A stretch of DNA of 63,022 bases from Perkinsus olseni (GCA_013115125.1 JABANN010000140.1:1-63022); one strand, 5' to 3'; shown: positions 5,484 through 28,664, counted from the stretch's first letter. A program made the numbers and translations. The notes: generated by a model from the sequence alone, not told the origin.

Positions 5484-6986
5484 TCACATGATAGAGCACT
5501 GCGGAGGCTTGTCGCCACCGCCGTCCTTCGAGGAGGCATCCTGCATGGCCTTGTCCAGATCTCCCATCATCTGCCGCAGTAAATCTGATACAAGGGAATC
5601 GACAGGTCAAGGTGGCACGCCCACTGCTACCAGGATTATCGATCATTTCCTTCATCACTTTGGCCGACTCCTCGTCCATGCCTGCAGGGTTGCCCTCAGA
5701 CGCCGAGGTGTCGGACCCAAAGCCCATCTGACGACCACAAAGATACTCCTGGCTATACGGACCTCAACCCTACTATCACCCCCTTTAAAAACTGAGCGAA
5801 CTCTTCTGCATCCTCTTTACTAGCCGGTGCCGCCGCATGCTTCCCCTCCTCCCCGCCAGACGACGACGAGGCCGCCGCCGTAGCAGCAGCAGTTGGTGGA
5901 ACTATCCGCTCTACTACCTCCTCCGGTGGCGGCCCTAATGCCTGCAGCTCGCCAAACAGTCGAGAGGCCTGCCATTCCGACTCATCACAGCCTCCAGTTT
6001 CATCACGGCAGTACCTCCTGCTGCTCAGCATCGGTCAAGGCATCCCCCTCAGACTTGTCATAAACCTCGAGGACGGCTGCGTACTTCCTCAAGATCAGCG
6101 TGCACCTAACGACACGGTGTCATCCCTTCTCCTGCTGATGGAGACAGCAATGATTCCTACCGTTCCCGCTCCTTCTCATCCAGGTTCTTGCCTTCATCAG
6201 ACGCCAGGAACACTTGCAGCTCATCGCGTATCTTCACGATAGGCTCCCGTATCGCCTCCTTGGCAAACATACCTGAGAGCTCTTGCCTTAACCTGGTCAT
6301 GATACATGCGATAAGGACTGGCCACCAGGGAGAGGCCGATAGACAACGCCAAAGGTGTGAGTGGTGGCAGGCCTCGACGCGGAGTAATCGTGGCAAAACA
6401 CACGAAATGCGTTAAGCTAGAGCAACCGAAAACAACAGCCTCTCCCGTCGACCGGATGCAGACTTGTTCTCTCTAGACTCGTCATCGTGATCTCAGAGAC
6501 GACTCATCGCCTCCCTAGCAACCGCGCTTTCTGTTGTCCCTGGGTACCTTTGGTCAAACCATTGATTTCCTTCATAAACTCCTCATCATCGCCCAAGTCT
6601 AGCTTCCTCATAGCTTCCATCAGCTTCTGGAGGTCCTCTTCGTCATCTTCCCCTGATCTCCACCCTACCAACCATAACCACTGCACTCCAGGCTCTACCT
6701 CCTCGCTGGGCGCTCTCTGAGAGACCCTTCACCAGGTCGTTTAAACTCTGCTCCAGCGTACTAGCTTGCTCCTTCCCTTCTACCGAGGCCCCAGCAGCTG
6801 CCGTGGTGGCCTTCTCCCGGCTACCTGTGAAGTCACTCGAACAGCAGTACCCCCAACGGCGAGCTCACCCTCTGTCCCCCTACCCTCCTCTGCCTTCGCG
6901 TTGTCCATTTCCTTGAGGGTTGATTCGATCAGATCATCCAGCTCATCTGACAGCTCCGGTGATGACTCATGATTTGCGACCGGCAT
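5484..6986 (-). CDS. PEX19: Peroxin-19 (peroxisomal membrane protein import receptor), multi-exon
   Basis: N-terminal DELDDLIESTL (PEX3-binding-type motif), MFAKEAIREPIVKIRD, LQALGPPPEEVV, and a C-terminal CaaX box ...KPPQCSIM*. Confidence 0.88.
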
Positions 6987-7208
6987 GGGATAGACACAAC
7001 TGCAGACTAAATCATCCCCAACAGCAACGAGCCAACCGAACTGCGCATCTTCCGCGCCGAAAGTTCTGGGCGAGCGCTAGATTTCGTGGCGCGTGACTGT
7101 GTCGGCGCATGATGCTCCGATCGCCGGCACGGTCGTGATCCTTCGCAAGGGAATTCCTACTACCTGCCTTGCTCTAGCTATTACTCCCCTACTGTCATCC
7201 ATTGAACT

Positions 7209-10200
7209 ATGCTATCCATAATCCTAACAGGCTCTATCTACCTCTACACAGGACTCACGGTAAGCCTTGGGGGGGGCAGTGGGGGCCTCGATCTCACAAA
7301 TCTAGGATGTAGCCATCCAGAATGGGGGCATCTTTCCCAGCAGCAGAAGAGAGGTGTCGTTCGTGGAGGGCCGTTGTGTGGCCCGGATGCGCGCAAGTGG
7401 TGCCCTCTAGACCAGAGTCTGTTACCGCCAGTCTGACAGTCAGTGATAGGATTCTTTCCCGTTCGGCCTGCGGTCAGGGGGCGACGGGTAGATGTCCCCA
7501 CCGACTTCATGTTGTCAGGTGAGTCCGCAGCCACCAAACACCTCACTCCGGAAGGGAAGCGCGGTAATGGTGTGCGGGCCATTAATCCTAACCCAGCCTC
7601 AGCCCACCGTCCTAACCCTATCCTCTTCAGGCCTTCTTCCAGCGCACCTCATGGCCTATCGCTTCCGTGAGTCTCAGGCGCCACTGTCGTTCGCCCCCAT
7701 TCGGTCCATGTTAGGTATCCCAGCTTGCCGCTGGCCACGGACGCTACTTCGGAGTACAGTGCATGGAACAGCACTGCGGCAGTGCCCTCAACACCTGCCT
7801 CATGGAGGCCGACAAAAGTCTAGACCCCGAGTTTAACAAGTACGACCATACCCTCCTCTACTGAACTCGTCATCCCAGTGCCTTAGGGACAAGCAGGAGA
7901 TCAAGCAGTCCCAGTGCGGGGTAATGCTGCTGTGCCTTTGGAATGAGGAGAAGGACGAAGAGACCCTAGAGAGGCAACAGGACCATATCCCCAACAAGGT
8001 GCCTCGCACTGTCGTCACCTTAGCCTTCGATCTGCCTCTCAGCTCTCGCCTGCTGCCGCCAAAGCCCTCTCCCAGGCCCGGGCTGCTAGAAGGGGGAGAG
8101 GGGCTGATGTGTGCACCGATGGTAGACCACACCCGGCACCAGCTCCTCAGTACCGACGGCGTACCCTTAGGTATCACAGCAGCCGAGGAAAGCCCTGCGG
8201 AAGGCTCCCTGCTCAAGTGCGCTCAAGACTTTGGATGTGAACGCGTTGTTGAGTAAGCCTCCTACCAGCACCCTTTACCACTCACGCATTTGGATTTTTT
8301 ATTCAGCCACGACCCTGCTGAGCTCGCGGCCTCCACGGAGATACCATCAGATGACGCCGTAGTCCAGGTGAGCTCCTCCCTCGGCCCCCTCTTCTCGCCA
8401 GCGCGGCCTCGCCTTCAGGACACTTCTCTGCTCAAGGATGCGCCTTTGGAGAAGGCAAAGGTTGCCATTCAATCCCTTAGTCCTAACTGCCTCAAAAATC
8501 ACTGCTCCGCCGAGCTCTACGCTTGCGATGAGAGTGAGTCGTCTGTGGTCGGTGCAGGCGGATCATCATCATCGTCTTGCTTCAGACGCCGAGTGCAACT
8601 CCGTATTCTCATGCCTCGAGATCAACTCCGCCCGCCACGATAAGACTGACGCTAAGAAGTGCACCGATAAGCTCATGGGGCTGGACGAGATTAAAAAGAA
8701 CTTGCTGGCCTGCGCTGAGGCGGCCAAGTGCCTCCAAGTGAGCACCGCCGCCTACCGCCTCTTGCCTTACTCGTAGACGTTGCTTTCACAGGGCGAGATA
8801 TCCCCCTCACTGAATCTCAAGGATGATATCGACTCTATTCCTGCCAAGCCTAGCTCGCTACTCCAACTTTCGGGAGGGGTCTCCAGCCATGCTCGCCAAC
8901 AACACATGACTGAGGCGGAGGTGAAGAAGGCCTTCGAGGTTAGTCGGCAGAAGACGGACGAGATCCTTCATAAAGTGGGCCCGTATGGAAGCAGAGGCCA
9001 GGCGGGTGATGCCTGAGTGCAGGTCCAACAGCAAATGAAGAGTCTGAACGTTCAAATGGATAAGACCAGAGATGATGAGCAAAAGGGCATGGCTGAGCTG
9101 GAGAAGCAGAGGAAAGACGATGACACGTAGGTGGCAGCGTTTGGCAGCCTCTCCTGCCTACTGCCCGTCTAACATCAGCAAACTCGGGGCTGCAGAGAAG
9201 CGGTACGAAGCACTCGAGACGAAGGCGATGAGTGATCCAAGTAAGGTTTCTTAATATTGTGTCGGCGGAAAATCCGCTTCGCCTGCGAGTCTCTGGATGG
9301 TGATGGTGTCATTTCTGTCAGGCTTCCAGAGCGGCAATCCCACTGGTGCTGCTGCTGCTGCTGCTGCTGCGACCTCGAGCTTTATGGAGGGCGACATCCC
9401 CGACTTCCTGGAGCCCTTGAGAGAGGTGGCAAGGAAGGCTCAGAGCTTTGCTGAGGAGATGAAGAAGCAACAGGAAGAACTTGACGCAGTTGCCAGCAGC
9501 GGCGGTGCGGCCTATTATTATCCTCAGCCAGCCCTCGTACCCCTCTGGGGACACCTTAGGTACTCCCTCAGGGCTCTCGCTGATTCAGGAGAAAGCTGGG
9601 GTTGCTACGACGGACCAAGAGGACCGTGAGTTGGCCAGTGCGATGAAGGCCGAGGACGCCGATGAGGTTCGTACGGACAAGCATCTCGCCAAGGCTAGTG
9701 ATGCGGTACAACAGTTGGGCTTGAGCGGGCCTCGGTGCCATAGGCTGCTTCCTCAGTTGAACGAGCTACAGCGTAGCATTCGGGAGGAGTCTCGCGAGCT
9801 GGCACTCGAGGAACGGAATGATGCTTCCCACGTACAGTCTGGTGTGCATGATCTTGGCGATAACGACGACGGCCTCTCCTTACTCGAGGAAGCATCTGAA
9901 AAGAGGGACTGGGAGACTGAGTAGTGTACTCACCGCAGCCCCGGTCTCACACTTGGCCCTTCTCAGCCTCGAGCGACACGTGTCCGAGTGGAGAAGCCTG
10001 CTCGCCCATGACTCTACCAATAGACGCCACTTCACGCCCAAGGCAGATGACGGAGAAGAGGACGATGACGATGAGGCTTCCTCCTTCCTACAGGTTGCTG
10101 ATAAGTCCGATGCAACCGGAGATTGGATCAGCAAGTGAGTACAGTCCTCGTCCGCCGGCCGGTCACTCTGTCGTATCAGAATCGAGAAGTATCTGAAAGA

Positions 10201-11237
10201 GGATCGCCAGCGCGTGCTGGCCGCTCGCAATTCGAAGTTGAGGTCGTCGTCCTCATCGGATGTGCCGGAGGAAGAGAATGACGAATCGGCCTCCTTCCTG
10301 GAGACCTCAATGGTAGTCTCCGCGGCCACTGTTGTCATGACATGCACAGATCCGCTGGGGCTCTCAGGATGCTGAGAATGTTCGATCTGCTATACGTAAG
10401 GAGGCGGAGAAGACTCGAGACGTTATCAAAGTTCTCCAGCAAGTGCAGGAAGCCGTTGACGTCAAGAAGGCCTCTCAGGTAGAAAGGCGACTTCCGCTCC
10501 TTGCTCCTCGCAGATGATGTCGCTGTCGCTGTAGGGCAACAAGCACAGTAGTGGTCCGTCCTTCGTCGAGCAGGCTCAACCTGGCCATTTCAACTTAGAG
10601 AAGGCCCAGGAAGAGGTCGGTGCTCTCCAGGCCAAGTGGGCGAGAGAGGCCAAGAAGATTTCAGTACGGCCAGCATCCTATTCCTAGTGTTCCTTCCGAC
10701 TGTGTGCTGTCACCCCAGGCCCCCACTGCAGCCGAGGCAAGCCCCCGTACCAACACTAAGCTCAAGGCGATCGAAAAGCGGACGGCTAAGGCTGACAAAC
10801 ACGTGAAAAAGGTCGACCAGGAGTTCAAGAAGGCGCTGGTCTCGCTGAAATCTGTAAGGCTGATGCGCTCTCTGGGGCCGCAAATTCGTTCCAGGATATT
10901 CTGTCTCAAGCTGACATGTCCAAGGCTGTCGGAGCATCCTTCCTCGAGCTCGGGTCCCAGTCGAAGGCTCACGAGAAGCTCGAGAAACTCCGGGCGGAGT
11001 TGGACGCCGACATAGCAAAGAACGCCGAGAAGCAGCAGCAGATCGAAGAGGAGATGAAGGAGGCCGGGGGATCGCAGTCCCTACTTGAGGAGACCAAGAG
11101 AGAGGTATCCAAGGTTGATGCGTGGTAATGACAGAACACCGGTCCTCGGTGGTCAGGCGGCACTCCCGGTGAGCCTTACACAGGCCATGTCTCGACTGGA
11201 CGCTTTGGCTAAGCGACTGAGTAAGGAGAGTGCTTGA
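7209..11237 (+). CDS. Large multi-exon protein: Cys-rich N-terminal modules, then coiled-coil blocks separated by S-Phi-X-E/Q motifs (5' end uncertain)
   Basis: Exons joined by GT-AG introns: QCMEQHCGSALNTCLME, KCAQDFGCERVVD|HDPAE, NHCSAELYACD, AECNSVFSCLE..KKCTD..ACAEAAKCLQ. Helical blocks follow, with SSLLQ, SSFME, SLIQE, SLLEE, SSFLQ, SFLE, SFVE, SFLE, SLLEE; ends AMSRLDALAKRLSKESA*. Confidence 0.7.
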
Positions 11238-11386
11238 GCCTACCAGCCATCAATGATGATGTGCATTAACATGATAACCCAGAAGGGTGTTAGTCTACCA
11301 CCACTACGTCTGTTGAGCCGTCACTACCTATGAGACGAATACGCAACTCTTTGCAGCAATTACCTCACACACATTTCAAAGCACTC

Positions 11387-13479
11387 ATGCACTGCTCCCG
11401 CCTTCTCTCCTTCGTATCCACGATGACAGCCTTGCCGCTAGTGTCCGGCATACAAGTGAATGCAGCAATTGGTGCTAGGACAAGCCTGGCCGATAGAGTT
11501 ATTGAGACGAGCAGGAAGAAGTCGGAGGAACTCCTCAAGGAGGTGTGTCCTTGGCCGTGGCCAGGTCACTACGGCCAGCTACTACTTCCACTCAGGTCCA
11601 CGACCAAATAAGATCTCTGACGAGCGATCTCGATCAGAGCACGGCCGAGCAGAAGAAGGATCTGGAACTGCTCAAACAGAACGAAGACTACCAAGACAGG
11701 TGAAGGACAGCCCGGGCCTGGCATCCTCGTCGCATCCATCAACTTCAGGGCCCTCGAGAATACCGAGTCCAAGCTCAAGGACATTGCTGCCGAGAAGATC
11801 ACATTGCCAGGTGGAGGGTTGTGCTAGTCCGCCGGATCTTGAGCCCGACGACGGTGTTTTTTTTTCAGATGCACCCCCGATGAGCAGCTTCATGGAAGGC
11901 AAGAATGGCCAGGGTGATATCTTTGCGCCTCTCCGGAACGCTGCAGAGAAGGCCAAGGAATTTGCCCAGAAGATCTTCAATGGCACCGAGGCATCAGTCG
12001 AGGGTGAGAGCACCACCGAGGCTGTATCGAGGCACATGCTCAATTTTGCAGGCCCGGCCGGGGACAGCAGTCAGGCCGACGGAGGGAAGAACTCATCCTC
12101 ATCCTCTTTCCTGGAGGCCAAGGACATCGGCTACTTCCTCGGCAATGCTGGCTCTGCAGGGTCGGAGGATGCTGATACGGATGCCGCTGAGAGAGGCCTC
12201 AGCATGGCTCAGGACGGAGTAGGTCTAGAGGCGATCTGAAGGAAAGGCACCTCCTGTTTTGGCAGATCAGTAAGCTCGACGCTGACATCGCAGCTCAGAA
12301 GAAGATGTTGGCCACCGAAAGGGCTGAGCTCGAGAAGGAGAAGGAGGCCACCGCCAAGATAAACCTAGACGATGCTGACTCGGCAACCTCAGTGGCCTCC
12401 TCGCTGCCGGATACGCCAGATCAACTCGACAACACTGAAGACTACTCGAATGCCCTTCCTAGCCTCTCCTTCCTCGAGACTCACAACGGAGCAAGTACGG
12501 TCGCGGCCGCTTCCAGAGCTCGACTTAGCTCCTGGTTGCAGAGGTGATGCTGAATTCCGAAGGGCTCAGTTCGCGGAGACTCCAGTTGGTGGCTTCCCTT
12601 GTATGCAGGCTCAGGGCTAAGTTAAATAAAGCGAGATCAGCAGCCGGCCTCCCAGACCTGCCTACTGAGGAACCCAAGAAGGATATCACCAATGAGGAGA
12701 AGTCGGTAGCGAAAGGAGAGAAAGGAACTAAGAAGAGATCCAGCTCTGAGAAAGAAGAGTCGGGAAAGAGGAAAGGCTCATCCTTCCTAGAATGGGCCCC
12801 TGTTAACTTTGCGGTAAGTCACTTACTGCATGTCCGACGGTCGCCTGATTCTCTGCGCCACCATAGGGAACTGAAGATAGGCAGAAGGAAAAGAGGGAGG
12901 TGGAACGTTTGAAGGAGGAATTTGCCGAATCCATGCAGAAGGTTAAGGACCAGAGCGCCGCTCTCCTTGCCGAGTCCAAGGCTGATGTAAGGCCAGGGTC
13001 AGCCCGCTCACTCCCCCAAAGCTGCCCCTTCCTCAGCTCAAAGCGAACAGGAATTTCAAGTCGAAGCTGGAGACAGATGACGAGCCCTCTACTAGCAGCT
13101 TTGTCGAGACTAGTAGCTACGATCCCGAGAGGGAGGCCGCGGCCATCAAGGCGCTCGACAGAAGGTGGGAGGCGGAAGCGGAGAAGCTGCGGAATGTGAG
13201 GCGTCCAGTCGACAAGTGCTGCTATGTTATGATGAAGACAACCTCAGGCCCCGATCGACGGACCTGAGGAAGAAGAGCTGACGGCAATGCTGAAGACTCA
13301 AAGAGAGAAGGATGCCAAGGACGATGAGAAAATCAGAGAGTTGAAGGATGAGATGCATGAAGACCTGAAGAAGCTCCACAAGGTGAGCCTTAGGCCTAAT
13401 GGTCAAAGAACAACATACTCTGCTTTATGTACGTCCGGTTCAGGAGATTGCTCTGGCTACTGCCTCCACTGCCAACTAG
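11387..13479 (+). CDS. Putative secreted coiled-coil protein with repeated S-F-X-E motifs; paralog of the upstream gene
   Basis: Signal-peptide-like start MHCSRLLSFVSTMTALPLVSG-IQ. IETSRKKSEELLKE|VHDQIRSL aligns with FEVSRQKTDEILHK|VQQQMKSL of the upstream gene, at the same intron position. Motifs SSFME, SSFLE, LSFLE, SSFLE, SSFVE; ends EIALATASTAN*. Confidence 0.8.
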
Positions 13480-15459
13480 CTGCAGGACACATTCGTGAAT
13501 CTGAGCATATTGTGCGGATTCATATATATGAAAACAGTTGAGGCCGTACGTTTGGTGAAATGGCACACTCGACCCATGAAAGAGTGATCCAGGTGTAGAG
13601 TACATCGCGTAGTGTTAATCCCAGTACCGAATATCCATAGCGTGAACCAACCCGATAGGTGAATCCCGTTCTCAAGAGTACCAGTTGAAAGGGAGTTTCA
13701 GAAAGTGGAAGGACGCACTAATGATAGACTAGTCGAGTTACAAAACCGGACCCTCACGCTTTGTGTAGTTACAGTCCGTAACCTAAATCACGGGCGATGG
13801 AAATTCCAGTACCATTTCTAGTTCTACTTTTCAGTGGAGTCTCGAAATCCCAGCTTAGCATTTCAGGAAAATGAATGAAAATCCATGGATAAACTGTGAG
13901 GAACCCTCCACGATGAGGCTAGGGAAAGGGCAACCCAAAAGGCCCTGAAACGAAGAGGGCGACCAGAAACCCAGTGTGAGTGAGTTGCTGAATGCGTCCT
14001 TGGTAATCCTCCTCAATGATCTAGGAGTCCTGGACCAGGACCCATTGGATGAGGATTGTCCAAGTTGGACAGACCAACGTCGATTGTTGGAGATGTACTC
14101 GTGAAATGAAACCCATCAGTAGCAAAAGCATGTTTTCAGTGAAAACGTTTCACTTCGTCGCAACCCTCTGGAGATAAGTACATGCGCGTTCGCGGTTCAT
14201 ACTCCACCCCTGTTTTTTAGGATGTCGCACCGTGTTATGCGGTATTGTATCATTTTGCCTGTTATGCCCGAAGTTTATGCCCGAAAGTTCTTTCGAGTCG
14301 ATTCTCTGTGAAAACAAACAGTTCCTCATTCCATTCACCACCTGCTTCTCTACGGAATATTTCCAGCTGAAACGAATAAAGTTTATTCAATAAACCATTC
14401 CGCATTTGACAAAAATGTGAAATGTCGCGAAACACCTTGTGTCACAGAACTTGTGTGGTCTTCATGAAAAACGCCGTTCCTGGCGGAGGTTTCTAGCGGT
14501 GTGATCAAGTCATCGTCATGTGATCTTTCTGCGGTTCGCGTGGTCATCATCGTGATAACCTGGATTTCGTGATTCGCAGATGTATCTGAATTTAATGGAC
14601 CTTATTGAACTCAATCCCGGCGAAAAACTTCTCGTTAACAGAAAAGTTTTGGAAGTGTTCCCACGACAAGGGAGGGCAGTTTCCGTCCAAAACTTTTCGG
14701 ACACTATCAGCCGCGGGAATGGCCGGAGGCTCACGTCCTGAGCGGCTCCAAGCGCGAGATAATCTAATTAATCACTGCGATCAAGGCATCTTCGCCGTAG
14801 ATTAATAATCTCAGATTATCCAGGGATTCCCGAAATCCCGGAATCCGATTTCGAGGATCTCGAGAAGGGGACATCATAGCGAAGGGTATGGCAATCGTAC
14901 TAGTTGCGGAGCGAGCGGAGCATATTACGCTCGCTATTCCGAGCGTTATTCGGTAGCATATTTCCTCGGCATGTTTCGAGCTGCCAACCGTTGTCTACTC
15001 TCTTGTACTTTCCGGTGAAATACCGGTTCTTCGGTCAGTGAGTGTTGGACGAATGTATGTTCTCATATGACATATCCTCTGATAATGGCATAAGTAATGC
15101 GTAGTGCCGCATTACGCCGGGTCGTTGCCGTGACCAGCCTCAGTCGGCGTCCACAGTGGGACCAGGAGCCGATGAGCCCATGGTCCAGGCCCTGGACTTC
15201 AGAGACGTTCGGGAGTCGATCCGCATGCACGTGAGGCTGAGATCTATCTGCCTACTCACTATCACCCCATTCAATGACATTGAATCAATGTATCCGTACG
15301 CCTTATGATGGTTTCGCGGTCAACGTTTCGACCATCGCCGATGGTCCATCGGCACTTGCTGCTGTCCGTTGGTTGTGGATCTGTCCGCGGAGTGTGTAAC
15401 TTTGTCGATTACGTTCGATGATTCATCGCGCCGGGCGCGATGACGTGAAGCTAATACTT

Positions 15460-15760: not shown

Positions 15761-17518
15761 CTGAACTTCAGCTGCCGAGCGCCTCGACTGCTAACGAGGA
15801 CTTCATTATTCTTGGAAACCAGTCAGAAGAACTATGAATCGGAAATTCTTAGAAAAAGGAAAAGAAACTTAGTCTCTGCTCGCTCGCGTTGAAGATTTCG
15901 TTGCCCATGACGAGATCAAGTCAGAGGCGAAAGAAGTTCTGCTTTGGTGATGTTGCCTTCAGAAATCAATCGGTTTCGAGCTCTCCGCAAAGGAGCTGGT
16001 AATGCCGTCAGTTCGATCCAGTGGGTGCTAGCCCAGACAGCTCCTAATTCTGTGCATTGATGCCCATAACTTTACATGTGGGTTGCAAAGCACATGGGCC
16101 ATGTCACATGGCAGCCGATGTTTGGAGCACAATATCCCCCACGTTGATTTTTTTGAGTCGAAAGATTTCACTGGGAACCTGGTTCGGACAGTCCGGTTCG
16201 GATTGCTTCATCCATCGAGAAGGAGGATGCCAAGATTAAGGTGGTGATCAACCACCTTCTAACCAGGCGGGTGACAGCATGGTTCGTGCCCAAACAAGGC
16301 AACTCCCGGTGCCTGCACGTCAAGAAGGGCATGATGCCCTGGGCATCAAGCCAGCGCTGTGAGACACACGCACTACCCAAGAAAAGTTCGCGCCGCTGTG
16401 GTGTTGCCTTCGAACGTCTGGCCTCTCCGTCAGCTAAGTTGAATCAGCTAAGCTGAGCCAGCTTCAAGCCCTTCGCAACGAAGCGGGGAATGCCGTCGGT
16501 TCCATCCCAGGGGTGCAGGGAGCACCGTGCTCCCTCAGATAGCCCGCCATATTGGGCATTAACTTCACATGCTGTTCATTGGAAGACATATGCCGATGCT
16601 TGTGATACACTATTCCCCTGCGTTGAGTTCTAGTCAAACGGCGGTCAGATTCTGCAGTAGCGCAGTGTCACGCCTCTCTACTGAGTCAGTAGTCAATAAG
16701 GGGCAGCAATTTCGGTCCGAATTTCCCCGTGAGATCGCGAATGAAACATTCAAAGTGGGTTGATGCTCCACTCAAGTCGAGAAGAGCAAACTATATGGAA
16801 TCCATATTATGGATTATCTCAGGCTGAGAACCTAGAGTAAACTCGCCAATGACGAGTCGTCATGATTTATGTCATCGCGCTGCGTTATCAAGACATGCCG
16901 TGTCTGACACCGTGTCTTAGACACCTCGCCGAAGCTAGTAGCTTTAAGGCTTGAAGTTCAAGCTGCCACCGAGAAGTTTACCTCTGTGTTTTCTGTCGGT
17001 CGTGGGCTTCTGTCATACTTCTGTCGTAGGCCTTAGAGAGTTTGAACTGCACTAACAGCCAGTATGATACTGAGTATGCCGCATGAACCACTGTCTGTAC
17101 TTCTCGCCGCTTAACAGATCACGAGAGGCTCTCCGTTGAACGACGGTGCCAGCAGATGAAGTTCATCATGAAAGAACTTCGTTCATCTGCTGACACTCAA
17201 CGTCAGCCCATAGTCGTTAGTGAGATGGTAAATGAAATTGGCAGTTTCAAATTGCCTTCACTATGCCGCATAGTATGCGCACTGCGAAGAGAAACTTATG
17301 AGTCCCGAAAAAAAATTTCCTGTTGCCTCGGGAAATCGGGAAAAAATTGTGAGAGATTTCGCTCTGGAAAAAGTCGTCAAAAGTAGCTTATTCCTCATAC
17401 CTGCCAAGCAGGTATTTCGAATGACCCGTCCGACTCTCCGACAGAGCACAACATCCTTCATTATGATAAAAATCCCGAAACGAGGCATGGACGTAAGCTT
17501 AAACACCCAGATAGAGAC

Positions 17519-26190: not shown

Positions 26191-27117
26191 TTAAAGTTTA
26201 CTACGAATTGCCAAGTATCCTATACCAGCAGCACCGGCTGCTGCTGCTGCACAGAGGCAATGTAAAAATGGCGGGTACCATAGAACGACGCCCGAGGCGT
26301 GCCGAGTAAGGGCCTTACGCCATGCCGCTACATACAGAGTGTAGACCATATCATGGAGGGCCGAGTTGAACATGTGGGGTATCTTACACCCTATGATCGG
26401 GAGGGACCGGTAGGGAGTGAGGCCAGTTGAGGGGTCCATCGTAAGCATCTCAGAAAAACACAGAGTCATTCCCCACAGGCTCAAGGCGTCCACGGCGACC
26501 TCGGGCCGGATTTTGGTGGCATCTCTCAAGCAAACTACAAGCGATGGCAGTGTGAGCTCCGTCAAACCGAGGAGATGCAGATACCAATACATGCTCGTGT
26601 CCCTTGGGATACTCCACTTAACTTCCTTCACGTCCTCTTCCCTAGCGCAGGCGATTGCTGTGAGAGGGACCCACCCACAGGCAGCAACTTCCTCGACTGC
26701 CAACGTGAAGGCCTGAGGGGCCAGTTGCTCGTAGACGAAGCAGCCAATGACCATATTAACCCTGCGGGATTCGAAGGTCTCCATGTCGCTAACTCGGCCA
26801 AGGTATCTGTAGTGCTTCCTGTTCGTGAGGTCGACTCCCAGCTCCTCCCGAACCTCTCGACAGGCAGTGGTAAAGTCACAGGCAGCGTCTTCCACGTCAC
26901 AGCGACCACCGGGGAAGGCCGTCTGTCCCGACCAGGGGTCGCCTTCACGAGCAGCCCGGCGTATGAGGAGCATCTCAGCAGGATCCTGCGGTTGAGGGCC
27001 CGGGCGTACAATACAGGCCACCATTGCCCGGGACTTCACCGCTACCTTAGCCGCGCTGAGGACGGGCGATTGGCGAGCTAGCCTGGCAGTAATCTGGGGT
27101 ATGGTGAGGGCAGGCAT
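26191..27117 (-). CDS. Nudix hydrolase, CoA-diphosphatase-like (NUDT7/PCD1 type), ends in SKL; intronless
   Basis: LLIRRAAREGDPWSGQTAFPGG and Nudix box TACREVREELG, LWGMT; C-terminal hydrophobic stretch then SKL*. Confidence 0.9.
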   Translation of the reverse strand: MPALTIPQITARLARQSPVLSAAKVAVKSRAMVACIVRPGPQPQDPAEMLLIRRAAREGDPWSGQTAFPGGRCDVEDAACDFTTACREVREELGVDLTNRKHYRYLGRVSDMETFESRRVNMVIGCFVYEQLAPQAFTLAVEEVAACGWVPLTAIACAREEDVKEVKWSIPRDTSMYWYLHLLGLTELTLPSLVVCLRDATKIRPEVAVDALSLWGMTLCFSEMLTMDPSTGLTPYRSLPIIGCKIPHMFNSALHDMVYTLYVAAWRKALTRHASGVVLWYPPFLHCLCAAAAAGAAGIGYLAIRSKL

Positions 27118-27358
27118 TCGAGGGCGTGAGATGAACAGCGGTTAATAAACTATGAAGACACAAAACGTGACGCCGCTCTCTGCTTGCGAACAGCCACTTC
27201 ATAGATTCTTGATGACATCCCGGAGACCACAGTCGATGGACCATCACTTGGAGGCCAGCAGAGGCCGAGAGTATGACTGTTGCTGCTGTTCGAGCGCAGG
27301 AGAACTCAGCTAAGTGTAGCGTCCAGAAACAATAGTACAAAGGATGTGCATGGAGCGG

Positions 27359-28297
27359 TCAGAGGCGACTGCGCAGGCCTACGTAGACGGCACCAGCGGC
27401 AGCGACGATAAGGCAGGCAAGGACGCCGTGGAAAAAGCACAAATAAGACAGATGCATCGCCGAGCCATCACGCAGCCCTCGCCGATTATTATACGTCGAA
27501 TGGTACAGCGCCACGAGGAGGTCATGCACTGCTGAGTTGAACTTGCGAGGGATTCTGATGCCGAGGACGGGCAGCTTGCGGTATAGCCTTAGAGGGTTGC
27601 CATCGCGGGCTATCATATTCGAAAACTGTAGCGTTATACCCCATAGACTGAGATCATCCACAGAAACATCAGGTCTAGCCTGGACCGGGTCCCTCATGAC
27701 GATAGGGAGGGTCGCCAGGGCCACACGATTCAGACCGATGAGATCAAGATAGCCATGAAGATAGGACGGCAGCCCCCAACCCCTGGGGACGGTCCAGTAG
27801 GTATTGTGGAGGTCATCATTAGTAGCATAGCCGATCAAGGAAAGCGGCACCCAACCGCTGGCTGAGACCTCACGAGGGTCCAGTGTGAGGGAGTCGGGTG
27901 CTAGCTGTTCGAAGACCAGGCAACCGATGACCATGTGGATCCTCCCCCGGCGATAGATCTCAATATCGCTGACCCGCCCTAGCAACCTGTAGTGCGCCTC
28001 ATCGGCCAAGTTGATCCCTACTTCTTCCCTCACTTCCCGTATTACCGTTGCCAGATCATCACCGTCGTCCTCGACCTCACAGCGGCCACCAGGGAAGGCA
28101 GTCTGACCCGACCAGGGGTCCCCTTCACGAATGGCCCGGAGTATGGTCAGCATCTCGGCCGACTGTCCAGGCTCCGACCCTGGTCTAACGATACACCCTA
28201 TCATCGCTCTTGACTTCACAGGCGTTACAGCGCCACTCAGGACGGGTTCCTCCTGCGACAGTCGAGCTGCAAGCTGGGATACGGTGATGGTAGGCAT
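27359..28297 (-). CDS. Second tandem Nudix hydrolase paralog, ends in SRL; intronless
   Basis: MPTITVSQLAARL..., RAIREGDPWSGQTAFPGG, TVIREVREEVG, LWGIT; colinear with the neighbouring Nudix; SRL*. Confidence 0.9.
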   Translation of the reverse strand: MPTITVSQLAARLSQEEPVLSGAVTPVKSRAMIGCIVRPGSEPGQSAEMLTILRAIREGDPWSGQTAFPGGRCEVEDDGDDLATVIREVREEVGINLADEAHYRLLGRVSDIEIYRRGRIHMVIGCLVFEQLAPDSLTLDPREVSASGWVPLSLIGYATNDDLHNTYWTVPRGWGLPSYLHGYLDLIGLNRVALATLPIVMRDPVQARPDVSVDDLSLWGITLQFSNMIARDGNPLRLYRKLPVLGIRIPRKFNSAVHDLLVALYHSTYNNRRGLRDGSAMHLSYLCFFHGVLACLIVAAAGAVYVGLRSRL

Positions 28298-28664
28298 ACA
28301 AGACGCTGACAGGCCTGAACAGCACGCTCTTGCGCTAGTACTGGGCTTTTGGTGCACAGCCCCCCTAGCTACTCCCCGTCGGATGGTCATCCCTATCCGT
28401 TATTCGAGACGTTGGAACACAACAGATGGAGTTGCATAGAGCTTCATTATTGTTATTGTTATTAAGTGATATGGCCAAAGGAGTGCTATGCAGGTCCTGC
28501 TAGAGCCAACAGCTGAGGGGTGGTGATACTTATACCAATACAGTGTACAGCTCACGACGACGAGGAGGAGGAGGACCAGAGAATATCAAGCCGAGCAGCA
28601 TGCACTACGCAACAAAGACAATCATTAATATTCTAGTTCACACGAGAACACTACTGCCGCTACT

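What the first reader, a model, noticed from the sequence alone, without database searches (positions are those of the whole stretch)
8200..13479. Tandem coiled-coil polyproteins with ~14 S-Phi-X-E/Q motifs: candidate protease-matured secretory-organelle cargo system
Seen in sequence: after splicing, two adjacent plus-strand genes consist of charged helical blocks separated by Ser/acidic linkers ending in a recurring motif. Gene 1 has SSLLQ (~8852), SSFME (~9375), SLIQE (~9577), SLLEE (~9877), SSFLQ (~10079), SFLE (~10292), SFVE (~10559), SFLE (~10937) and SLLEE (~11078). Gene 2 has SSFME (~11883), SSFLE (~12102), SFLE (~12468), SSFLE (~12778) and SSFVE (~13093), and begins with a signal-peptide-like leader. 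Established: S-Phi-X-E (e.g. SFVE in Toxoplasma ROP1) is the maturation site of apicomplexan rhoptry proteins, linked to ASP3/plasmepsin IX-X type processing; ciliate extrusome matrix proteins are also helical pro-proteins cut during granule maturation. Inference: each gene is a polyprotein cut into many small helical peptides for a rhoptry or trichocyst-like organelle in an early-branching myzozoan.
Basis: partly seen in the sequence, partly recalled or inferred. Interest (0 to 1): 0.85.

Follow-up and report, generated by a model that had tools for sequence, protein, structure and literature searches.

The report
Perkinsus secreted proteins with repeated cleavage-like motifs
Two neighbouring genes of the clam parasite Perkinsus olseni encode secreted, helix-rich proteins whose flexible linkers each carry the short motif that malaria and Toxoplasma parasites use as a protease cutting site, which suggests, without yet showing, that this maturation code is older than the apicomplexans.

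Summary
The window is a Perkinsus olseni contig. Gene 2 (11387-13479, 518 aa) has 10 introns, all confirmed by a spliced contig. Gene 1 (7209-11237, 884 aa) starts about 1 kb upstream of the reported span. All 14 reported motifs are in frame: S-[FL]-[LMVI]-[EQ] occurs 9 and 5 times, against about 0.2 expected.

The genes belong to an uncharacterised family found only in Perkinsus and unnamed environmental sequences. All 15 members tested carry 4-9 motifs. Members have signal-peptide-like starts and no membrane segment. Long forms carry a 16-cysteine N-terminal region.

In the AlphaFold model, 5 of 5 motifs lie in disordered linkers, 9-21 residues before the next helix. The motif columns are the best conserved part of the family.

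The motif equals the published plasmepsin IX/X consensus (SF*hE/Q/D) and the Toxoplasma S-phi-X-E site. My best reading (about 0.5) is multi-site proproteins cut into helical peptides of 33-115 residues (plus a 309-residue cysteine-rich N-terminal piece in gene 1) in the secretory pathway.

Cleavage, the protease and the organelle are all unshown. "Coiled coil" and "polyprotein of repeated units" are not supported. NCBI's model wrongly fuses the two genes.

The parts
7209..11237 (+). Gene 1 (long form): 23 exons, 22 GT..AG introns, 884 aa, stop TGA at 11235-11237
   Evidence: NCBI protein P0001 threaded onto the window. Intron 9505-9571 comes from my own model because orthologue P0024 reads FSLIQEKAG there. 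Gene 1 uses its own stop instead of NCBI's fusion intron 11221-11441. Final model. Splicing was not confirmed by the RNA contigs shown.
7209..7259 (+). Gene 1 exon 1: signal-peptide-like hydrophobic start (MLSIILTGSIYLYTGLT)
   Evidence: Mean Kyte-Doolittle hydrophobicity 2.03 over 10 aa. The same start is seen in orthologue P0024. SignalP was not run.
7760..8238 (+). Gene 1 cysteine-rich region 1 (aa 60-172, 8 Cys; introns included in the span)
   Evidence: Cysteine positions. These cysteines are invariant in 7 of 7 long forms.
8488..8731 (+). Gene 1 cysteine-rich region 2 (aa 221-284, 8 Cys; intron included in the span)
   Evidence: Weak matches, below cut-off, to the start of Pfam VDE PF07137 in 5 of 7 segments.
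8855..8866 (+). Gene 1 motif SLLQ (PSSLLQLS)
   Evidence: conserved in P0024
9378..9389 (+). Gene 1 motif SFME
9577..9588 (+). Gene 1 motif SLIQ
   Evidence: In frame only with intron 9505-9571. NCBI's model skips it; P0024 keeps it.
9877..9888 (+). Gene 1 motif SLLE
10082..10093 (+). Gene 1 motif SFLQ
10292..10303 (+). Gene 1 motif SFLE
10559..10570 (+). Gene 1 motif SFVE
10937..10948 (+). Gene 1 motif SFLE
11078..11089 (+). Gene 1 motif SLLE
11387..13479 (+). Gene 2 (short form): 11 exons, 10 GT..AG introns, 518 aa, stop TAG at 13477-13479
   Evidence: All 10 joints are present in one spliced X1 contig. Translation.
11387..11464 (+). Gene 2 signal-peptide-like leader (first 26 aa)
   Evidence: The same kind of start is seen in P0003, P0007 and P0046. 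SignalP was not run.
11886..11897 (+). Gene 2 motif SFME
   Evidence: in a low-confidence linker of the model
12105..12116 (+). Gene 2 motif SFLE
12467..12478 (+). Gene 2 motif SFLE (S, F and L invariant in the 10-sequence alignment)
12781..12792 (+). Gene 2 motif SFLE
13097..13108 (+). Gene 2 motif SFVE
15763..16057 (+). Decayed copy of the family's last module (frame broken)
   Evidence: tblastn with the P0006 tail; sequence and translations
16456..16515 (+). Second short relic of the same module

Best explanation
Gene 1 and gene 2 are separate tandem paralogues of a perkinsid family of soluble proteins that enter the secretory pathway. Each protein is an ordered series of charged alpha-helices joined by disordered, fast-evolving linkers. 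Almost every linker holds one copy of S-[F/L]-[L/I/V/M]-[E/Q].

I read these motifs as endoproteolytic maturation sites. After entry into the ER, and disulfide formation in the long form's cysteine-rich head, a post-Golgi protease would cut within each motif. By analogy this protease is an ASP3 / plasmepsin IX-X type aspartyl protease, and the cut would fall between the two hydrophobic residues, as in SF*hE. Cutting at every motif would give helical peptides of 33-115 residues from both genes, plus a 309-residue cysteine-rich N-terminal fragment from gene 1. The peptides would be stored in, or released from, a secretory compartment such as rhoptries or other extrusomes.

Shown: the gene structure of gene 2, motif enrichment, motif conservation, the linker position of the motifs, signal-peptide-like starts, and the restriction of the family to perkinsid-like sequences.

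Inferred: the cleavage itself, the enzyme class, the cut position, and the destination.
For: 1. Enrichment. There are 9 and 5 strict motifs against about 0.2 expected, with 0 of 5000 shuffles reaching the observed count. All 15 family members tested have 4-9 motifs against 0.11-0.33 expected, with 0 of 2000 shuffles each.

2. The motif is the most conserved feature of the family. In the 20-sequence alignment, motif columns have occupancy 0.96 and identity 0.61. Other linker columns have 0.47 and 0.12, and helix columns 0.88 and 0.31. The motif class is kept in 15-19 of 20 sequences at each of gene 2's five sites.

3. Position. In the AlphaFold model of P0002 (99% identical to gene 2 over the 92-aa query exon), 5 of 5 motifs lie in non-helical stretches, most with pLDDT below 50, and 9-21 residues before the next helix. 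In the low-confidence model of P0024, 7 of 8 motifs start outside helices.

4. Site logo from 95 sites: small residues at -2 and -1, then S, then F70/L25, then L57/I20/M9/V9, then Q57/E38, then T/E, then G/S. This equals the published consensus SF*hQ/E/D for plasmepsin IX and SF*hE for plasmepsin X (passages of PMC13637054). It also fits the Toxoplasma S-phi-X-E sites, for example ROP1 SFVE|APVR, an ASP3 substrate (passages of PMC5595437).

5. Secretory route. 24 of 30 M-starting members have a hydrophobic N-terminal window. Neither window protein has a hydrophobic 19-aa window beyond residue 40. The long forms have 16 invariant cysteines.

6. In 4 of the 10 sequences of alignment A1, a motif follows directly after the leader (..FESFIQTD and similar), as expected for removal of a short propeptide.

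7. The motif copies do not come from recent repeats. Self-BLAST shows no internal repeat, and the two genes share only 22% identity.

8. Perkinsus is reported to have both rhoptries and other extrusomes (passage of PMC5609580).
Against: - There is no proteomic or blot evidence of cleavage.
- No Perkinsus aspartyl protease was examined, because no genome was held and I had no admissible query. The only hint is an EST survey that lists cathepsin E among the proteases identified (passage of PMC2868825).
- The Toxoplasma N-terminomics paper says that ASP3 sites gave no obvious consensus. A motif match therefore does not identify the enzyme.
- The order of the helices is conserved across the family. 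That would also fit a single protein that works uncut.
- Only 2 of 7 helices show significant amphipathic periodicity, so a lattice-forming coiled coil is not indicated.
- Gene 1 RNA contigs seen were unspliced and of low depth.
- The signal peptides were judged by a crude hydrophobicity rule only.
Confidence: 0.5

Rival explanations
1. The motifs are cleavage sites, but the enzyme is not an ASP3/PMIX/X-type aspartyl protease. It could be, for example, a subtilisin-like or cysteine protease of the secretory pathway. The outcome would be the same small helical peptides, made by different machinery.
For: S-phi-X-E cleavage in Toxoplasma was long attributed to the subtilisin SUB2 (passages of PMC5595437). 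Perkinsus ESTs encode secreted subtilisin-like and cathepsin-like proteases (passages of PMC2868825). No Perkinsus aspartyl protease was examined here.
Against: Two adjacent hydrophobic residues flanked by S and E/Q is the defined plasmepsin IX/X consensus. In Toxoplasma, ASP3 depletion blocks processing while SUB2 showed no evident defect on ASP3 knockdown.
Confidence: 0.15
2. The proteins stay intact. The repeated motif is a multivalent short linear motif in the linkers that binds a partner, such as a sorting receptor, a chaperone or another matrix component, or that drives self-assembly.
For: The motif sits in disordered linkers and is conserved, as binding motifs are. The order of the helices is conserved across the family.
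Against: Sorting would need one copy, not 4-9 per protein. Copies directly after the leader fit propeptide removal better. I recall no binding motif of this form, and I did not search for one.
Confidence: 0.2
3. The serine is a modification site (an S-x-x-E type acid-directed phosphorylation site) or the N-cap of a helix-capping box (S-x-x-E).
For: S-x-x-E is the form of casein-kinase-2 type sites and of capping boxes (recalled, not from a call). The motif precedes each helix.
Against: Position 4 is Q in 57 of 95 sites, which an acid-directed kinase would not favour. Positions 2 and 3 are strictly hydrophobic, which neither reading requires. The helix starts 9-21 residues later, and the motif is followed by T/E then G/S, not by helix.
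Confidence: 0.08
4. The motif count is a by-product of composition or of recently duplicated repeat units.
For: The proteins are rich in S, L and E.
Against: Composition-preserving shuffles never reach the observed count. No internal repeats are detected. The sites are kept across proteins of 23-36% identity while their surroundings are not.
Confidence: 0.02

Closest known systems
Substrates of apicomplexan clade-C aspartyl proteases (Toxoplasma ASP3; Plasmodium plasmepsins IX and X): rhoptry, microneme and exoneme proproteins with S-phi-X-E / SF*hE sites
   Same: They have a signal peptide. They carry the same four-residue motif, including E/Q at the last position. The motif lies in an exposed, non-helical stretch, and in some members directly after the leader.
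   Different: There is no detectable sequence relationship to any apicomplexan protein. Each protein has 4-9 sites rather than the single propeptide site of ROP1 or ROP13. The organism is a perkinsid, on the dinoflagellate side of Myzozoa. Cleavage, enzyme and organelle are untested.
Ciliate dense-core granule proproteins (Paramecium trichocyst matrix proteins, Tetrahymena Grl proteins), whose processing needs the aspartyl cathepsin CTH3
   Same: Both are multigene families of secreted precursors thought to be cut at conserved motifs into smaller polypeptides during organelle maturation. An aspartyl protease is involved in the ciliate case (passages of PMC4142616).
   Different: Heptad or amphipathic periodicity is weak here. 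The ciliate sites are not known to me as S-phi-x-E (recalled).
N-terminal cysteine-rich part of violaxanthin de-epoxidase (start of Pfam PF07137), compared with gene 1's head only
   Same: There are weak but repeated matches to profile positions 3-74: P0024 at E 0.0054, and 5 of 7 domain segments with best E 0.0025. The first structure row in the Atlas is a VDE cluster. The cysteine spacing looks similar (recalled).
   Different: All scores are below Pfam's cut-off (14-17 bits where listed, against 25.7). The Atlas TM-score is 0.29, under its bar. A profile search with the domain found only family members, no VDE. There is no lipocalin part.

Membership tests
ASP3 / plasmepsin IX-X substrates (S-phi-X-E, SF*hE proproteins) | Enters the secretory pathway (signal peptide) | tested here: met
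   Both window proteins, and 24 of 30 M-starting relatives, have hydrophobic N-terminal segments. There is no later membrane-like segment. The long forms have 16 invariant cysteines. This is a crude rule; SignalP was not available.
ASP3 / plasmepsin IX-X substrates (S-phi-X-E, SF*hE proproteins) | S-F/L-hydrophobic-E/Q/D motif in an accessible stretch | tested here: met
   14 sites in the window. Logo from 95 sites. 5 of 5 sites lie in modelled linkers. The consensus comes from passages read.
ASP3 / plasmepsin IX-X substrates (S-phi-X-E, SF*hE proproteins) | Cleaved at the motif in the cell, dependent on the protease | not testable with these tools
   No proteomic data could be queried. Supplements of the P. 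marinus complexome paper (PMC13623125) were not opened.
ASP3 / plasmepsin IX-X substrates (S-phi-X-E, SF*hE proproteins) | A clade-C aspartyl protease is encoded by the same organism | not tested
   No genome was held for the window, and I had no admissible protease query. Literature searches linking Perkinsus with plasmepsin IX/X or ASP3 listed no such paper.
ASP3 / plasmepsin IX-X substrates (S-phi-X-E, SF*hE proproteins) | Resides in rhoptries, micronemes or exonemes | not testable with these tools
   No localisation data were found for these proteins. The accession search returned 0 papers.
Ciliate trichocyst / mucocyst matrix proproteins (TMP, Grl) | Sequence homology to TMP or Grl families | tested here: not met
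   phmmer over 1.84 billion representatives gave 31 hits. Pfam gave no family.
Ciliate trichocyst / mucocyst matrix proproteins (TMP, Grl) | Heptad-repeat (coiled-coil) segments | tested here: inconclusive
   A hydrophobicity periodicity test on the 7 modelled helices found 2 of 7 significant at period 3.6, and one of those also at 3.5. No dedicated coiled-coil predictor was run.
Polyprotein of repeated like units | Tandem homologous units within one precursor | tested here: not met
   Self-BLAST of both proteins at E up to 10 gave only the self hit. The alignment shows distinct conserved helices in a fixed order.
VDE N-terminal cysteine-rich domain (Pfam PF07137, first ~70 positions) | Score above Pfam's gathering threshold | tested here: not met
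   Listed scores are 16.7 and 14.0 bits against a cut-off of 25.7. 5 of 7 segments match weakly.

The most novel reading that the evidence does not exclude
The SF*hE/Q 'cut here' code and its aspartyl maturase predate the split between apicomplexans and the perkinsid/dinoflagellate line. Perkinsids use the code to dice ordered multi-helix precursors, made as long-plus-short gene pairs, into a set of small helical peptides. Together these peptides would form the content of a regulated secretory organelle. That would be a myzozoan counterpart of the ciliate trichocyst and mucocyst matrix proproteins.
Probability: 0.25. Interest if true: 0.8.

Novelty: new variant of a known kind. Interest (0 to 1): 0.6.

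Why it matters
S-phi-X-E / SF*hE processing by ASP3 and plasmepsins IX/X is central to invasion and egress in Toxoplasma and Plasmodium, and it is a drug target. In the papers I read it is described only for apicomplexans.

A conserved perkinsid family with 4-9 such sites per protein would be natural multi-site substrates outside the Apicomplexa. It would make it possible to test whether this maturation system is ancestral to Myzozoa. It would also point to the cargo of Perkinsus secretory organelles, which is essentially unknown.

The work has a practical result as well. It corrects a public gene model (two genes fused in FOL46_001440) and defines an unannotated protein family that includes many environmental sequences.

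My searches found no paper that links Perkinsus with these motifs or that mentions these accessions.

Tried and rejected
- No whole genome was held for the window, so there was no proteome-wide motif scan and no protease search.
- The look-up of sequencing runs listed no holder on record as RNA. The two runs are 'RNA?' guesses. Spliced contigs nevertheless show the joined form of gene 2.
- Gene 1 splicing is unresolved from what one search showed. The displayed contigs were unspliced, and further joints and pieces were not shown.
- My own intron-finder recovered only 8 of gene 2's 10 true introns. For gene 1 I therefore used the threaded NCBI model plus orthologue evidence. A first threading script timed out.
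- Pfam found nothing above threshold for 3 + 8 family proteins.
- The ESM Atlas gave no usable feature hit.
- A profile search with alignment A1 and a domain search with A4 found only family members.
With P0008 it gave one locus, L001, holding a single family gene and no tandem partner on that 8.5-kb contig.
- Neighbouring window genes (FAST-like, NAP, AlgH-like, helicase, two NUDIX, TPT transporter) are unrelated, and there is no protease nearby.
- Fold search was not run. Both models have pTM 0.21 and are strings of helices, so matches would be meaningless.
- Complex prediction was not used, because I had no partner sequence.
- Literature searches gave nothing on these proteins or on Perkinsus plasmepsin-like enzymes.
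- The coiled-coil reading was tested and not supported.
- Chance or repeat origin of the motif was rejected.


Full report
**What the window is.** A 92-aa exon of gene 2 retrieved a 1384-aa NCBI protein, FOL46_001440 of Perkinsus olseni, on a contig of exactly 63,022 bases. It also retrieved near-identical P. olseni proteins and a 66%-identical P. marinus fragment. The organism is therefore a perkinsid, a mollusc parasite on the dinoflagellate side of Myzozoa.

**Gene 2.** Contigs of run X1, laid on 6000-15000, include a 1616-nt spliced contig that joins ten GT..AG introns. One of the joints is also seen in run X2. With the ATG at 11387 this gives an open 518-aa frame that ends at TAG 13477-13479.

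**Gene 1.** My own splice-site dynamic programme recovered only 8 of gene 2's 10 introns, so I did not rely on it for gene 1.
- I threaded the NCBI protein onto the window.
- I kept NCBI's introns except one. With intron 9505-9571 the protein reads ..GLSLIQEKAG.., as the P. chesapeaki orthologue P0024 does (..FSLIQEKAG..). NCBI's choice skips that motif.
- The final gene 1 runs from 7209 to 11237, with 22 GT..AG introns and 884 aa.
- What I could see of X1 over gene 1 was low-depth and unspliced (pieces 8804-9208, 9383-9704, 9984-10421), and 8 joints and 27 pieces were not displayed. Gene 1's splicing therefore rests on the annotation, on colinearity with the orthologue, and on an intron-free relative (see the family section).

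**Two genes, not one.** NCBI's model fuses the genes through an intron at 11221-11441. Four observations speak against the fusion:
- The X1 contig starts at 11417, inside that supposed intron, and runs unbroken to 11542. Cover between 10816 and 11417 is almost nil.
- Gene 1 has its own in-frame stop, and its P. chesapeaki orthologue ends at the same place.
- Gene 2's leader is present in P. olseni P0003, P. chesapeaki P0007 and P. marinus P0046.
- The orthologues are annotated as neighbouring separate genes: FOL47_006741/006742 in P. chesapeaki and PMAR003575/003576 in P. marinus.

**The motif.**
- The pattern S[FL][LMVI][EQ] occurs 5 times in gene 2 against 0.15 expected (0 of 5000 shuffles). 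It occurs 9 times in gene 1 from 8792 onward against 0.21 expected (0 of 5000).
- The other long ORFs of the window hold 2 such motifs in 8384 aa.
- The looser pattern S[FLMIV].[EQ] is less striking in gene 2: 6 against 1.55, with 26 of 5000 shuffles reaching it.
- The two proteins are only 22% identical, and neither has internal repeats detectable by BLAST. The motif copies are therefore not left over from recent duplication.

**The family.** phmmer with P0002 against 1.84 billion representatives found 31 proteins at E up to 0.001.
- Every named protein among those looked up is from P. olseni, P. chesapeaki or P. marinus. The rest are metagenome or Logan proteins without organism names. One fragment carries an automatic V-ATPase label.
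- A search with the cysteine-rich region found 27 long forms of the same kind and nothing else.
- All 15 members tested carry 4-9 strict motifs against 0.11-0.33 expected, with 0 of 2000 shuffles each.
- The 95 sites give small residues at -2 and -1, then S, F70/L25, L57/I20/M9/V9, Q57/E38, then T/E and G/S.
- A metagenome contig, L001, encodes an 899-aa long form as one uninterrupted ORF with the same motifs. This shows that the architecture does not depend on my splicing.
- P. chesapeaki has a second long/short neighbouring pair, FOL47_005687/005688.

**Anatomy.** 24 of 30 M-starting members have a hydrophobic N-terminal window. The two window proteins have no later membrane-like stretch.

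Long forms carry two 8-cysteine regions, all 16 cysteines invariant in 7 of 7 sequences. In gene 1 these are aa 60-172 and 221-284.

The AlphaFold model of P0002 (mean pLDDT 66, pTM 0.21) has seven helices, mostly at pLDDT 80-93, joined by stretches mostly at pLDDT below 50. All five motifs lie in those stretches, 13, 21, 9, 9 and 9 residues before the next helix. In the poorer model of P0024 (mean pLDDT 50), 7 of 8 motifs start outside helices.

In the 20-sequence alignment the motif columns are the best conserved part of the protein: occupancy 0.96 and identity 0.61. Other linker positions score 0.47 and 0.12, and helices 0.88 and 0.31. The motif class is kept in 15-19 of 20 sequences at each site.

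In four members a motif follows directly after the leader.

If every motif were cut between its two hydrophobic residues, gene 2 would give pieces of 115, 57, 105, 83, 71 and 87 residues. Gene 1 would give a 309-residue cysteine-rich head plus nine pieces of 33-114 residues.

Only 2 of 7 helices show significant hydrophobic periodicity, so 'coiled coil' is not supported.

**Comparison with what is known.** From passages I read:
- Toxoplasma rhoptry proteins carry an S-phi-X-E site. [quoted passage not shown] The same paper found no obvious overall ASP3 consensus (PMC5595437).
- The plasmepsin IX consensus is SF*hQ/E/D and the plasmepsin X consensus is SF*hE, with the cut after F (PMC13637054). 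The same consensus appears in the abstract of PMC9804387 (listing).
- Plasmepsin X cuts itself at IALE, SSIE and NFLD (PMC9352755).
- In ciliates, granule proproteins are cut at conserved motifs, and the aspartyl cathepsin CTH3 is required (PMC4142616).
- Perkinsus is said to have both extrusive rhoptries and other extrusomes (PMC5609580).

The perkinsid motif matches the plasmepsin IX/X consensus residue for residue, including the E/Q alternation.

**Reading.** The most economical explanation is that these are multi-site proproteins matured by an endoprotease in the secretory pathway. By analogy the enzyme is of the ASP3/PMIX/X type. I put this at about 0.5.

Against it:
- Nothing shows cleavage.
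- I could not look for the enzyme, because no genome was held.
- The fixed order of distinct helices would also suit an uncut protein.

Rivals, with my estimates:
- Another protease class (0.15).
- A multivalent binding motif in an uncut protein (0.2).
- A modification site or helix cap (0.08). This is disfavoured by Q at position 4 in 57 of 95 sites and by the distance to the helix.
- Chance (rejected).

The organelle is open.

**Novelty.** No paper in the library mentions the P. marinus accessions (0 papers). None joins Perkinsus with these motif words. My searches on Perkinsus with plasmepsin, ASP3 or rhoptry terms listed none on this subject. The family is unannotated, and Pfam finds nothing. 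I class the finding as a new variant of a known kind: a known maturation motif, in a new family, in a new lineage, in a multi-site layout.

**Side observations.**
- The cysteine-rich region weakly resembles the start of the Pfam VDE model, below cut-off.
- Gene 2 on this contig ends one module earlier than its orthologues. Decayed, frame-broken copies of that last module lie at 15763-16057 and 16456-16515.

Noticed in passing
window 11221-11441: The public gene model FOL46_001440 (P0001, 1384 aa) fuses gene 1 and gene 2 through an intron that skips gene 1's stop and gene 2's leader. An RNA-derived contig starts inside that 'intron', and the orthologues are annotated as separate genes.
   Followed up: yes
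window 15763-16057 and 16456-16515: Decayed copies of the family's last module (..STANEDF.. / ..RVEDFVAHDEIK..) with a broken frame. Gene 2 here stops at 13477-13479, one module earlier than P0006, P0007 and P0046. I did not examine whether the 13.5-15.7 kb stretch is an insertion.
   Followed up: partly
window 7760-8238 and 8488-8731 (gene 1 aa 60-172, 221-284): Two 8-cysteine regions, invariant in all 7 long forms. The second matches the first ~70 positions of Pfam VDE (PF07137) weakly in 5 of 7 sequences, below cut-off, and the top Atlas structure row is a VDE cluster at TM 0.29. This is a lead only.
   Followed up: partly
L001 1844-4543: An unnamed environmental eukaryote (contig GC 0.47) encodes an 899-aa long-form homologue as a single intron-free ORF. 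It lies among what look by eye like an ABC1-type kinase, a CCT chaperonin subunit and an RNA polymerase second-largest subunit. About 20 further ~890-aa environmental long forms exist. Their organism is unknown.
   Followed up: partly
window 6014-7001 (minus strand): A neighbouring minus-strand gene with short CT..AC (that is, GT..AG) introns is covered at much higher depth in runs X1 and X2. One intron is joined differently in the two runs (6820/6880 against 6822/6867).
   Followed up: no
window 26191-27141 and 27359-28399 (minus strand): Two tandem NUDIX-domain paralogues. Other neighbours are FAST-kinase-like, NAP, AlgH-like, a ZGRF1-like helicase and a TPT-family transporter. None is related to the finding.
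   Followed up: no
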